Shown here piece by piece: positions 1,350 to 60,400 of a DNA stretch of 64,000 bases. This DNA is from Podarcis muralis (taxonomy: Eukaryota): positions 25,668,001 through 25,732,000 of the forward strand of contig NC_135667.1 of assembly GCF_964188315.1 (NCBI RefSeq). Reading direction: 5' to 3'. The position numbers were made by a program. Numbering within the stretch: the stretch's first letter is position 1; each line of letters opens with the position of its first letter.

Positions 1350-1385
<36 letters not shown>

Positions 1386-3641
1386 GGTTTTGGTGTCCTC
1401 GGGTATCTTCCCGTGTAAAAGTTGGGGTGTCTAGGCGACGTTTCGACGAGGTCTCACTCGTCATCTTCAGGCTGGTGCTTTCGGCTTCTTGTTACTGGAA
1501 CAGAGCAGGATCTCAGTGTTTGAGTTCCTATAAATACTGTTGAGGAGGTGTGGCCTCCAATGTTCTAGGCAGAGAGGAAGTTCCCAGGCTAGTGTGCCTT
1601 TTCTTCTTTTGTTCCTTAATTGCTTGAGGGATATCTTGAGTGATTTCTTGAGTGATATCCTGAGTACCACTTAGGTGGGTCATTAGGTGTGGATTAGTTA
1701 CTAAAGCCTTTGTGTCTTGACCTCTTGAACTTTGTGAAGAGTTTTTCTGAGAAGATGGGTGTACTACATTTAGTTGTGCTCTGGCTTGGCTTCGTGTATA
1801 GGGGCGAGCTGTGGTTTTGTGGCCTGTGCCAGCCAGATCTGTGTAGGGATTGCAGGGGGGTGCAGCATCCGGAGGTGCCACCATGGTTTGGCTACTGGAT
1901 GGTGTCTGTAATTTATCTGTGGAGAGGGTCTGGGTTTGGGTCTGGTGTGGTTGATTGGTGATGGCGTTCTGTGTGCCTCTGGATCTGGTGTCAGTTTTTG
2001 TGGGGAGGGCTAATTTCCAGATGTCTGGCAAGCGGGATGTGTCGTCACGCTTGTTCATGTTGTGAGGGTGTTTCTCTATCTCGATGGCTTCCATGATTAT
2101 TCTCTTGTGGTGATGTTCCATGTTAGAGAGCAATTTGGAATCTGCAAAATTAATTTCGTGTCCTGTTTCTTTCATGTGTTGGAAGAGAGAGGAAGTTTTT
2201 TCTTCTTTTTTGACGGCATTCTTGTGTTCTGCGATACGTGCATTTATTCGTCTGTTTGTTTGTCCAATGTACGTGGCTGGGCAGACTTTGCAGGGTATTT
2301 CATAGACCCCTTGGTTTTCCAACTGGATTTTATCCTTGGGGTTTCTGAGGATATTGGCTATTTTTTGGTTGGCGCAAAAGGCTGTTTTGATATTGTGTTT
2401 ATGGAGGATTTTGCTAATTTTATCTGTAGTGCCCTTGATATAAGGAAGGAGGGCCATGCCATTGTTTTCTTCTGTGTCTTGGTTTTTGGGGGGTGTTTCT
2501 TTTTGGAGAAAAACCAAGACACAGAAGAAAACAATGGCATGGCCCTCCTTCCTTATATCAAGGGCACTACAGATAAAATTAGCAAAATCCTCCATAAACA
2601 CAATATCAAAACAGCCTTTTGCGCCAACCAAAAAATAGCCAATATCCTCAGAAACCCCAAGGATAAAATCCAGTTGGAAAACCAAGGGGTCTATGAAATA
2701 CCCTGCAAAGTCTGCCCAGCCACGTACATTGGACAAACAAACAGACGAATAAATGCACGTATCGCAGAACACAAGAATGCCGTCAAAAAAGAAGAAAAAA
2801 CTTCCTCTCTCTTCCAACACATGAAAGAAACAGGACACGAAATTAATTTTGCAGATTCCAAATTGCTCTCTAACATGGAACATCACCACAAGAGAATAAT
2901 CATGGAAGCCATCGAGATAGAGAAACACCCTCACAACATGAACAAGCGTGACGACACATCCCGCTTGCCAGACATCTGGAAATTAGCCCTCCCCACAAAA
3001 ACTGACACCAGATCCAGAGGCACACAGAACGCCATCACCAATCAACCACACCAGACCCAAACCCAGACCCTCTCCACAGATAAATTACAGACACCATCCA
3101 GTAGCCAAACCATGGTGGCACCTCCGGATGCTGCACCCCCCTGCAATCCCTACACAGATCTGGCTGGCACAGGCCACAAAACCACAGCTCGCCCCTATAC
3201 ACGAAGCCAAGCCAGAGCACAACTAAATGTAGTACACCCATCTTCTCAGAAAAACTCTTCACAAAGTTCAAGAGGTCAAGACACAAAGGCTTTAGTAACT
3301 AATCCACACCTAATGACCCACCTAAGTGGTACTCAGGATATCACTCAAGAAATCACTCAAGATATCCCTCAAGCAATTAAGGAACAAAAGAAGAAAAGGC
3401 ACACTAGCCTGGGAACTTCCTCTCTGCCTAGAACATTGGAGGCCACACCTCCTCAACAGTATTTATAGGAACTCAAACACTGAGATCCTGCTCTGTTCCA
3501 GTAACAAGAAGCCGAAAGCACCAGCCTGAAGATGACGAGTGAGACCTCGTCAAAACGTCGCCTAGACACCCCAACTTTTACACGGGAAGATACCCGAGGA
3601 CACCAAAACCTGCATTCCTGTACCCGTGAAAATCTACGAAA

Positions 3642-3677
<36 letters not shown>

Positions 3678-57362: not shown

Positions 57363-57422
<60 letters not shown>

Positions 57423-60400
57423 TGCCCTATACCCAGAGGTCTCAGGGTGGTTCACAGGGTGGTTCACAGAATAAAATCAAAATATAAAGCCACAAAATAC
57501 ATAATCAAAATAAAAAACAACAACAACCCCCCCCCTCTTGATTATCTATTTAGCTATCAGTTCTATAGTTCATATCCTAAAAATTGTTGATGCAATTTAA
57601 TGGTATCAGTATCTTGGTTCACAATATTCATATAAATTCGATTTATATATAAGTTATATATGGTTAATCATCTAGCTTTCTCAGATATTGAATATCTTTA
57701 ATATCTTCCTTTATCACCCCCAAAAATCTTTCTGCAGAACGTATAAATGAATGAGACTGACATCACTGAATTCGTCCTCATTGGCTTCTCTGGACATCCC
57801 AAAACAAAGATAGGATTGGCGGCTTTAATGACCATCATCTACTTAGGAAACATAATCGGAAATGGACTCATTCTGTTTGTAGTCATAGCTGATCCTCGGC
57901 TCCATAATCCAATGTACTTCTTCCTTTGTAATCTGTCCATCATTGATATCTGTCTTTGTACATCTTCAGTTCCACAATCTATTGCCAACTGTTTGGTGGA
58001 CAGACCTGTCATGTCTTTTGCTAAATGTTACATTCAGATGTACACTGGTATATACCTTGGATCAACAGAATGTTTCTTGTTGGCAGTCATGGCTTATGAC
58101 CGCTATGTTGCCATCTCCAATCCACTCCGTTATATGCTTATCATGAACTGGAAAGTTTGCATTGTTTTGGCTATTGTATCATGGACCATGGCCTTCTTAC
58201 TTGCTATTGTTCCCTGTCTTGCAAATCCTGCCCACTTCTGTGGACATAATGAGGTGGATCATTTTGCATGTGAGCTCACAGCCCTCATGAAATTAATTTG
58301 TTCTGACAAGGCTGTGGGACAACTGACAATGTACTTCACCAGCACCTGCACAGTCCTTTCCCCCTTCTGTTTCATCCTCTTTTCGTATGCACGTATCCTT
58401 GTGGCCATTTTGAGAATCCATTCATCTGGAAGCAGACTGAAAGCTTTCTCTACTTGTGGATCTCACCTAGTTGTAGTGCTGGTGTTCTTTGGAAATTCTA
58501 TAATCACATATATCAAACCTCAATCTAAGGACAGTCATACTATTGATAAAATTATTTATATCTTTAATGCAGCACTGATACCTATGTTAAACCCTTTAAT
58601 CTATACACTGAGAAACCAGGATGTGTTAGGAGGGCTCAAAAGGCTGGTGGAGAAGAAACTGCAGTGAAAGTGTTGATTGAATCTAGTGTGTTTAGACATT
58701 ATTTTAAACTGTCATGACACTTATATTTTCAGTTTTCTTTGGGTGAAAGGGAGGGGGTAATGGAGCTGCATTAATATTTTTCTAAACAGAGTGAATAATA
58801 TTGATAATAATAGAAATAGAAACAAAAAGATAGGTTTCATTTATATAACATATCCACTGTATATACTCAATTACTCAATCCAGTGGTTCTATAAATCCTG
58901 AGAGCAGAATATATTCAAATAATGAACAAATTCTCTATAGCAAATTAAGCTCTGGGGAGAATGCATAATATGAACCTATGAGGACTTTAAAAAGAAAAAT
59001 GCATTCCAATACATAGTGATGAGAAAAATGCTTTACCCATGAGGATATCCTCATGGGTAAAGCATTTCTTCTAGCCAATTTTATCTGTGCAAAAGAACTT
59101 ACAGAACCTAAATGAAGCAGCCCATAGGCAGAGCTTTTTTTCAGCTGGAACTCACCAGAACCCAGTTCCAGCACCTCTCAGGTGGGTACCATTGCCATTC
59201 TAGGAGAAAAAGGAAGGTGTTCATGCTGAGTTCTGGCACCTCTTTTTCTAGAACAAATAATTAAAAAATGGCACTGCCCATGGGCAAGGCTTTATCAATA
59301 TACCAGCAGTGATTCAATTCGAAACCCAGCATTCAGAAATCATCTGGATGCACAGGGAAGCAGGCAGAAAGCAGATTCAGTGTCACATTTTGACAAAGGT
59401 GCAGCAGGATCTGATCAACTTCATTGTGATACAAAGAGGCATACCACATTGAGCATAATTTAAGTGGGATTACATCATTCACAGACACACCCGCCCCCTG
59501 CCTAGGATATGACAGATTGTGAAATACTTGCCCAGAACCTTTTTGGATATGATGCCCAAAGTATGCACCTGAAAATCCCCTAGGGGTGGGTCCATGCAGG
59601 GGTCAGAAATCCTCTCTGTGGCTCTCTCTCTTTCTGCAGCAATGTCAGGGTGCTCCCTGAATAAACTCTGGTTGGAAGCCTCATGGCAACTGTGCTCACC
59701 CATCACTGGGATCCTCAAATCTTGGGTGGAACCATCCAAGATATATTGAGTGGCTTGATGGTTCGCATAAAGTTAACACAGAGGGTATACAGCCACTAAC
59801 TTGATAGGTATGGAGGCTATAAACCGGTCCTGAAAGACTTACATTGGCTCCCAGTACGTTTCTGAGCACAATTCAAAAGTGTTGGTACTGACTTTAAAGC
59901 CCTAAATGGCCTTGGTTCAGTATACCTGAAGGAGTGTCTCCACCCCCATTGTACAGCCCAGACACTGAGATCCAGCTCTGAGGGCCTTCTGGCGGTTCCC
60001 TCCCTGAGAGAAGTGAGGTTACAGGAAACCATGCAGAGGGCCTTTTTGGTAGTGGTGCTCACCCTGTGGAACGCCCTCCCATCAGATGTCAAGGAAATAC
60101 ACAACTATCTTACTTACTGAAGGCAGCCCTGTTTAGGGAAGTTTTTGATGTTTGATTACAGGTAGGTAGCCGTGTTGGTCTGCTGCAGTCGAAACAAAAT
60201 TTTAAAAAAATCCCTTAGAGACCAACTAAATTTGTTATTGGTATGAGCTTTCGTGTGCATGCACACTTCTTCAGATTATGAATTCTTCAGATGTATCTGA
60301 AGAAGTGTGCATGTACACAAAAGCTCATACCAATAACAATCTTAGCTGGTCTCTAAGGTGCTACTGGAAGGAATTTTTTAAATTTAATTTTAATATTTGA

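What the first reader, a model, noticed from the sequence alone, without database searches (positions are those of the whole stretch)
1381..60389. Shared insertion grammar in five PLE insertions: one arm has the tail, the other stops short, and TSDs show single events
Seen: in all five (1381, 25536, 39165, 41054, 60157) the 3' ends point outward and only one arm has the terminal tail. Both Poseidon copies stop the tail-less arm at the identical base (ATGCAGG). Neptune copies have 12-bp TSDs (perfect at 25524/26621). Private variants are shared by both arms of a copy (GGGTATC in copy 1, GGGTGTC in copy 2). In three of five, the tail-less arm extends further 5' than the tailed arm, so it cannot be a snap-back copy of it. 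Known: a tail on only the terminal repeat is described for Drosophila Penelope. Inference: both ends of the break primed reverse transcription, at two fixed sites, on the same source RNA or a tandem RNA.
Basis: partly seen in the sequence, partly recalled or inferred. Interest (0 to 1): 0.66.

Follow-up and report, generated by a model that had tools for sequence, protein, structure and literature searches.

The report
Two-armed Penelope-like retrotransposon insertions in a lizard
Five head-to-head double copies of two known lizard retrotransposon families show the footprint of copying started from both ends of one DNA break, a real pattern that is already described for these elements.

Summary
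The window is an olfactory-receptor cluster; its best protein match is to the wall lizard Podarcis muralis. It carries five head-to-head Penelope-like element (PLE) insertions: two Poseidon-type and three Neptune-type. In all five the 3' ends point outward and exactly one arm has the terminal tail (28 nt in Poseidon, about 36 nt in Neptune). Both Poseidon tail-less arms stop at the same base. All three Neptune copies are framed by 12-13 bp target-site duplications. The Poseidon arms share 7 copy-specific variants against 1 arm-private one. In 3 of 5 copies the tail-less arm reaches further 5', so neither arm can be a copy of the other.

It is essentially published: one-sided tails on inverted copies (Arkhipova 2013, Craig 2021), and two internal start sites plus extension of both strands in vitro for Anolis Poseidon (Frangieh 2024).

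Corrections: a sixth, single-armed tailed fragment exists at 29664-29740. Neptune C's tail-less end does not align exactly with the other two. Arm-shared variants are not seen in Neptune A and C.

The strict one-tail pairing (5 of 5) is unexplained in the text I read.

The parts
1381..2498 (-). Poseidon P1, tail-less arm. It holds the GIY-YIG end of the ORF, the 3' UTR and the hammerhead core, and reaches 21 nt further 5' than its partner.
2499..3645 (+). Poseidon P1, tailed arm. The tail is 3616-3643; the AT at 3644-3645 is ambiguous with the flank.
1353..1380 (.). (TA)n flank left of P1. The matching right-hand tract is 3646-3676.
41054..41789 (-). Poseidon P2, tail-less arm (736 nt).
41790..41802 (.). 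P2 junction filler. It re-copies the last bases of the left arm. The start of the right arm is ambiguous between 41799 and 41803.
41803..42205 (+). Poseidon P2, tailed arm. The tail is 42176-42203. The (TA)n flanks are 41030-41053 and 42206-42231.
25536..26356 (-). Neptune A, tail-less arm, carrying the C-terminal end of the ORF. It is interrupted by a SINE-like repeat at 25883-26214, which has its own 12-bp TSD (25871-25882 and 26215-26226, 11 of 12). The junction with the right arm is ambiguous between 26357 and 26362.
26357..26620 (+). Neptune A, tailed arm. The tail is about 26585-26620.
25524..25535 (.). TSD of Neptune A, left copy. The right copy is 26621-26632 (12 of 12).
39166..39294 (-). 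Neptune B, tailed arm. The tail is about 39166-39201. A 7-nt re-copied filler lies at 39295-39301.
39302..39345 (+). Neptune B, tail-less arm (about 45 nt). The TSD is 39153-39165 and 39346-39358 (12 of 13).
60157..60276 (-). Neptune C, tailed arm. The tail is about 60157-60191. The junction filler is 60277-60292.
60293..60395 (+). Neptune C, tail-less arm. The TSD is 60144-60156 and 60396-60408 (12 of 13). The last ~16 nt are AT-rich and align poorly with the other tail-less ends.
29664..29740 (+). Sixth Neptune fragment: single arm with tail, abutting a 5'-truncated SINE-like repeat at 29494-29661. No TSD was found.

Best explanation
Each two-armed copy is one retrotransposition event of a Penelope-like element.

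Proposed steps (all inferred unless marked shown):
1. The element's GIY-YIG nuclease makes staggered cuts about 12-13 bp apart. For Poseidon the cuts fall inside long (TA)n tracts.
2. Both 3'-OH ends then prime reverse transcription.
3. Priming does not start at the RNA's 3' end. It starts at one of two fixed internal sites that lie about 84 and about 114 nt into the ORF of the next unit of a more-than-unit-length transcript.
4. An arm started at the distal site carries the tail. An arm started at the proximal site does not.
5. The two cDNAs run inward and stop at different points.
6. They are joined head-to-head with short re-copied fillers.

Shown here: the geometry, the TSDs, the fixed ends, the non-nested arms, the common source of the Poseidon arms, and the coding nature of the terminal stretch.

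Inferred or taken from the literature: priming by both strands, how the cDNAs are joined, and whether one RNA, a tandem RNA or two sister RNAs served as template.
For: - Orientation and one-sided tail in 5 of 5 copies.
- TSDs of 12/12, 12/13 and 12/13 frame the whole units (B read). The control gave 4 of 20000 random pairs at that level.
- Both Poseidon tail-less ends fall at the same base.
- Non-nested arms in P1, P2 and A.
- 7 arm-shared copy-specific variants against 1 arm-private variant.
- The last 114 nt of the Poseidon arms form an open 38-codon frame starting at an ATG inside the hammerhead core.
- That frame is 68% identical to residues 1-37 of P0031. P0031 then aligns with the N-terminus of a 994-aa RT+GIY-YIG protein, E 4e-32.
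- The tailed end at about +112-114 matches the initiation zone at 111-118 nt into the ORF reported for Anolis Poseidon. That paper also reports cleavage and extension of both strands, two adjacent start sites with the tail between them, and AT-rich targets (PMC11167929, main text).
- Four of the six (TA)n tracts in the window flank the two Poseidon copies. (TA)n is 0.30% of the window.
- Short re-copied fillers sit at 3 of 5 junctions.
Against: - The sample is five copies from one window.
- Poseidon TSDs cannot be read inside (TA)n.
- Neptune C's tail-less end does not align exactly with A and B.
- Arms of Neptune A and C are no more alike than arms of different copies (A_L-A_R 84.8% versus A_L-C_R 92.4% over 79 columns). 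A common template is therefore not shown for them.
- The near-identity of the Poseidon arms could also come from gene conversion between inverted repeats.
- In vitro, no difference in start site between top and bottom strands was seen (PMC11167929). That alone does not predict strict one-tail pairing.
- Rfam found no hammerhead, and the RNA folds are no better than shuffles (z 0.31 and -0.64).
Confidence: 0.7

Rival explanations
1. Self-priming (snap-back). One cDNA, or an antisense template, folds back on itself and is copied, so the second arm is a copy of the first. Arkhipova et al. 2013 proposed this idea for palindromic junctions.
For: - Junction C holds a 10-nt perfect hairpin with a 2-nt loop (60283-60304).
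- The Poseidon arms are nearly identical.
- PMC3846280 (passages read) argues for self-priming from the palindromes at inverted junctions.
Against: - In P1, P2 and A the tail is only in the shorter arm and the extra 5' sequence only in the other. Neither arm could have templated the other.
- A fold-back copy would run on into the primer DNA. It would not add a tail.
Confidence: 0.1
2. Two separate insertions. A second copy lands next to, or in, a resident copy in the opposite orientation, for example by the nuclease's affinity for its own sequence.
For: PMC11167929 says the RNP may nick AT-rich DNA in its own pLTR. The Neptune A and C arms are as divergent from each other as from other copies.
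Against: - A single TSD frames the whole unit in 3 of 3 readable cases (B read), with no internal TSDs.
- The Poseidon arms share 7 private variants.
- A head-to-head join exactly at a 5'-truncation point, five times over, is not expected from independent events.
Confidence: 0.04
3. DNA-level origin or artefact. The inverted pair arose from inverted duplication or palindrome formation after a simple insertion, from arm homogenisation by gene conversion, or from an assembly error.
For: P1 is a 1.1-kb near-perfect palindrome with 1 mismatch in 1114 columns. Craig et al. note that such structures trouble assemblies (PMC8557442).
Against: - The flanks on the two sides differ, so the arms are not a mirrored read.
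- The arms differ in length, and the tail is on one side only.
- TSDs are present in Neptune.
- The same pattern recurs in two unrelated PLE families.
Confidence: 0.04

Closest known systems
PAc, the Poseidon element of Anolis carolinensis (Frangieh et al. 2024, PMC11167929; main text read)
   Same: - The ORF start lies inside the hammerhead core.
- The ends fall about 84 and 112-114 nt into the ORF; the paper gives 111-118 for the main start zone.
- The tail is the stretch between the two start sites.
- Targets are AT-rich, and both strands are used.
   Different: - The host here is lacertid-like: the best protein hit is Podarcis muralis at 96%.
- I could not align the window to PAc itself because its sequence is in a closed supplement.
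- The paper's main text does not connect two-strand extension with inverted copies or with one-tail pairing.
Canonical PLE insertion architecture (Arkhipova et al. 2013, PMC3846280; Craig et al. 2021, PMC8557442; passages read)
   Same: - An inverted 5'-truncated copy lies head-to-head with the main copy.
- A 30-40 bp tail sits at only one end.
- TSDs are about 8-13 bp.
- Insertions favour (TA)n microsatellites.
- The repeats hold a hammerhead motif.
   Different: All five copies here are truncated in both arms: there is no full ORF and no direct pLTR. Those papers attribute the tail to nuclease resolution or to self-priming, not to paired initiation.
Twin priming of LINE-1 (recalled from Ostertag and Kazazian 2001; not read here)
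   Same: The cut geometry is staggered. The second 3' overhang also primes on RNA, which gives an inverted segment inside one TSD.
   Different: In L1 the second primer anneals at a random internal place on the same RNA, so the two segments are adjacent, non-overlapping parts. Here both arms start at dedicated sites and overlap over their whole shared length, so the same sequence was copied twice.

Membership tests
Penelope-like elements, endonuclease-containing | C-terminal GIY-YIG endonuclease | tested here: met
   The P1 arm translation hits Pfam GIY-YIG at E 2.9e-4 and 21.5 bits, just under the 22.6-bit cut-off. It is 96% identical over 288 aa to a Podarcis protein with RVT_1 plus GIY-YIG.
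Penelope-like elements, endonuclease-containing | PLE-type reverse transcriptase | tested here: inconclusive
   All arms in the window are truncated 3' of the RT. Only the relatives P0003 and P0009 carry RVT_1.
Penelope-like elements, endonuclease-containing | Minimal hammerhead motif in the repeat | tested here: inconclusive
   A core pattern (CTGANGA, a stem, then GAAA) was found in 5 of the 10 arms that cover it: P1_L, P2_L, P2_R, B_L and C_L. The other arms carry point changes. Rfam gave no hit at gathering score or at E<=1. PLE hammerheads lack helix III (PMC4209133).
Penelope-like elements, endonuclease-containing | Inverted 5'-truncated partner with a 30-40 bp tail at one end only, inside one TSD | tested here: met
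   5 of 5 copies have the inverted partner and a one-sided tail. TSDs were found in 3 of 3 readable cases (B read).
Penelope/Poseidon clade (PAc-like) | ORF starts in hammerhead stem II, the ends map about 84 and 114 nt into the ORF, and there is no CxxC linker before GIY-YIG | tested here: met
   P0003 has no CxxC motif upstream of its GIY-YIG region. The clade criteria come from PMC11167929 and PMC8557442.
Neptune clade | CX2-5CxxC motif upstream of GIY-YIG | tested here: inconclusive
   The window arms stop 3' of that region. The closest longer relative, P0009 (78% over 48 aa), has C-x4-C-x2-C just before its GIY-YIG region.
LINE-1-type twin priming | The two segments are adjacent, non-overlapping parts of one RNA | tested here: not met
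   The arms overlap completely over their shared length.

The most novel reading that the evidence does not exclude
The strict one-tail pairing reflects an ordered double initiation on one and the same RNA molecule.

The proposed order:
1. The first break end starts at the proximal site and moves off. The tail region stays single-stranded.
2. The second break end can then start only at the distal site. It copies the tail and re-copies the same RNA by strand displacement.
3. If the distal site fires first, the proximal site becomes part of an RNA-DNA duplex. Only a single tailed arm results, as in fragment D.

This would explain three things:
- Two-armed copies are always heterotypic.
- The arms share every variant.
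- The tail-less arm tends to be the longer one.
Probability: 0.2. Interest if true: 0.55.

Novelty: already known. Interest (0 to 1): 0.25.

Why it matters
PLEs are the least understood class of retrotransposons. The inverted, one-tailed copies are the natural record of how they integrate.

These loci show in vivo the pattern that the 2024 in vitro work would predict: two start sites and both strands used. That is useful corroboration in a second lizard lineage and in a second PLE clade, Neptune.

The one open point of interest is the strict pairing of one tailed with one tail-less arm. It held in 5 of 5 copies. If each arm chose its start site independently, that outcome has a probability of at most 0.5^5 = 0.03 (my arithmetic). 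The papers I read describe this pairing but do not explain it.

Tried and rejected
- Rfam at gathering score over the whole window and at E<=1 over 39100-42300: no hammerhead. The only hits were sub-threshold miRNA-family matches to hairpins.
- RNA folds of the terminal regions: z-scores 0.31 and -0.64. A stem-loop round the start sites therefore has no statistical support, although each minimum-energy fold places the proximal site inside a stem-loop.
- Word-index protein search with the 40-aa terminal peptide: no candidate. The exhaustive search gave 3 hits. One (P0030) is a low-complexity repeat and I dropped it.
- ARAGORN on the window: no tRNA, so the tRNA-like look of the SINE head is unsupported.
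- TSD search round fragment D, with or without the abutting SINE: none of 7 nt or longer.
- Literature search for 'Penelope-like' plus 'twin priming': 3 papers. Judged from the listing only, none is about PLE structure.
- The supplements of PMC11167929 (Figs S1B and S2, File S1) map genomic insertion ends and give the PAc sequence. They were closed and may already contain the tabulation.
- I considered structure and complex prediction and left them out, because no claim here depends on them.
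Full report
**Context.** The window has no N runs. It holds nine intact olfactory-receptor ORFs. The Poseidon arm translation is 96% identical to a Podarcis muralis protein carrying RVT_1 and GIY-YIG. The Neptune arm's closest named relatives are from Zootoca, Podarcis and turtles. 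I therefore take the window for a lacertid-like lizard, not human.

**What is there.** A self-comparison and a low-stringency search with the arms as queries find six PLE loci. The sixth is a single-armed fragment at 29664-29740.

**Poseidon copies**
- P1: left arm 1381-2498 on the minus strand, right arm 2499-3645 on the plus strand.
- P2: left arm 41054-41789, a 9-13 nt filler, then a right arm to 42205.
- In both, the right arm ends with 28 extra bases that the left arm lacks. The left arm stops at the same base in both copies. That end is ambiguous by 2 nt because the flank is (AT)n.

**Neptune copies**
- A: 25536-26620, with a SINE-like repeat inserted in its left arm.
- B: 39166-39345.
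- C: 60157-60395.
- Each has one arm with a tail of about 35-37 nt.
- The tail-less ends of A and B fall within 1-2 nt of each other. C carries about 16 AT-rich bases that align poorly, so its end is only approximately the same.

**Single events.**
- The TSDs are 12/12 for A, 12/13 for B and 12/13 for C (A and C; B read after an indexing slip of mine).
- In a control, 4 of 20000 random position pairs reached 12 of 13 or better, with +-3 nt of slop.
- For Poseidon no TSD can be read, because both copies sit in (TA)n.
- Their flanking tracts are 30 and 33 nt for P1 and 26 and 28 nt for P2. An unoccupied 62-nt (AT)n tract lies at 12669-12730.
- (TA)n covers 0.30% of the window. Two hits by chance would be about 1e-5 (my arithmetic), so the target preference is real. 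It matches what is reported for PLEs (PMC8557442, PMC11167929).

**Arms from one source.**
- Over the 373 columns covered by all four Poseidon arms, 6 SNPs and a 7-bp indel are shared by both arms of a copy and differ between copies. One site is private to a single arm.
- The P1 arms differ at 1 of 1114 columns.
- Neptune B shares one private base between its arms.
- Neptune A and C are old: their arms are 84.8% and 79.7% alike over 79 columns. The C value is lowered by a deletion in one arm.
- Those arms are no closer to each other than to the arms of other copies. For them the single-event reading rests on the TSDs alone.

**Neither arm is a copy of the other.**
- In P2 the tail-less arm is 736 nt against about 375.
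- In A it is about 480 against about 225.
- In P1 the 21 central bases read QKETPP on the left-arm strand, as in the Podarcis protein, and read nonsense on the other strand. The tail-less arm is therefore longer there too.
- B is the reverse and C is about equal.
- Where one arm alone has the tail and the other alone has extra 5' sequence, a simple fold-back copy is excluded.

**What the 'tail' is.**
- The last 114 nt of the Poseidon arms start with an ATG inside the hammerhead core and stay open for 38 codons.
- An exhaustive protein search gave two proteins that begin with this peptide, at 68-69% identity. One of them, P0031, aligns with it over residues 1-37.
- P0031 then continues as the N-terminal domain of a 994-aa RT+GIY-YIG protein (E 4e-32).
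- So the element's '3' end' is the beginning of the next unit's ORF, and the template must be longer than one unit.
- The tail-less end lies at about +84 and the tailed end at about +112-114.
- Frangieh et al. (PMC11167929, main text read) report the following for Anolis Poseidon:
  - the ORF starts in hammerhead stem II;
  - reverse transcription starts at two adjacent internal sites, the main one 111-118 nt into the ORF;
  - the tail is the stretch between those sites;
  - the targets are AT-rich;
  - the protein cleaves and extends both strands.

**Mechanism.**
- On the left of each copy, the top strand runs from flank and TSD straight into the complement of the element's 3' end. On the right, the bottom strand does the same.
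- That is the product expected if both 3' overhangs of a 12-13 bp staggered break primed cDNA synthesis.
- The junctions carry short re-copied fillers in 3 of 5 cases (P2, B, C). This fits joining of two cDNA ends by template switching or microhomology. This step is inferred.

**Comparison with what is known.**
- The inverted 5'-truncated partner and the tail at only one end are described in Arkhipova et al. 2013 and Craig et al. 2021 (passages read).
- Opposite-strand pairs of hammerheads 100-700 bp apart are noted by Cervera and de la Pena 2014.
- The main text of the 2024 paper does not mention inverted copies, and I found no paper that ties PLE structure to twin priming (listing only).
- The family labels hold up. 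The Poseidon relative has no CxxC linker. The Neptune relative P0009 has C-x4-C-x2-C before its GIY-YIG region. The window copies themselves are too truncated to test this.

**What remains open.** All five two-armed copies pair one tailed with one tail-less arm. If each end chose its start site independently, this has a probability of at most 0.03 (my arithmetic). In vitro, no strand bias in start site was seen. An ordered double initiation on one RNA molecule would explain the pairing, but five copies cannot establish it.

**What could not be checked.** The genome-wide tabulation could not be run with the collections on hand. The supplements of the 2024 paper, which map genomic ends, were closed.

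**Negative results.**
- Rfam found no hammerhead.
- The RNA folds were not better than shuffles.
- The word-index search with the terminal peptide found nothing.

Noticed in passing
8408-9346, 14863-15837, 20562-21494, 28183-29130(-), 35035-35982, 40060-41007, 47311-48330, 52287-53210, 57747-58667: Nine intact ORFs of about 310 aa, all matching the olfactory-receptor family 7tm_4 (E 1e-46 to 1e-52). This is a tandem receptor cluster. Poseidon P2 sits 47 bp past the stop of the sixth.
   Followed up: partly
12669-12730: An unoccupied (AT)31 tract of 62 nt. The summed (TA)n round P1 is 63 nt and round P2 is 54 nt, so 2 of the 3 long (TA)n sites in the window are occupied by Poseidon. In each copy the left and right tracts are nearly equal in length.
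   Followed up: partly
25883-26214; 29494-29661; 60642-about 61000: Three copies of a SINE-like repeat. One is inserted inside Neptune A with its own 12-bp TSD (11 of 12). One is 5'-truncated and directly abuts the single-armed Neptune fragment D, which could be a chimeric insertion. ARAGORN sees no tRNA in any of them.
   Followed up: partly
39294, 60276 and 60293 (inner ends of arms B_L, C_L, C_R): Three of the six Neptune arms begin within 2 nt of the same base, just 5' of the hammerhead core. That point is about 33 nt downstream of the TATATATAA box seen in the longer A arms. It could be run-off at the transcription start of the repeat.
   Followed up: no
41790-41802; 39295-39301; 60277-60292: Arm junctions carry fillers that re-copy the last 7-13 nt of the left arm. 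In C the filler also forms a 10-nt hairpin with the start of the right arm.
   Followed up: partly
39581-39730 and 49978-50126: A hairpin-forming repeat of about 150 bp in two copies (89-93% alike), with sub-threshold matches to miRNA-precursor families. It looks like a miniature inverted-repeat element.
   Followed up: no
1528-2883(-) and 2113-3468(+): Two mirror-image 451-aa ORFs run through the centre of the P1 palindrome, because the antisense of each arm happens to stay open. A gene finder could miscall them.
   Followed up: no
3551 region of the P1 right arm: The only difference between the two P1 arms is a G-to-A change in the GAAA box of the hammerhead core.
   Followed up: no
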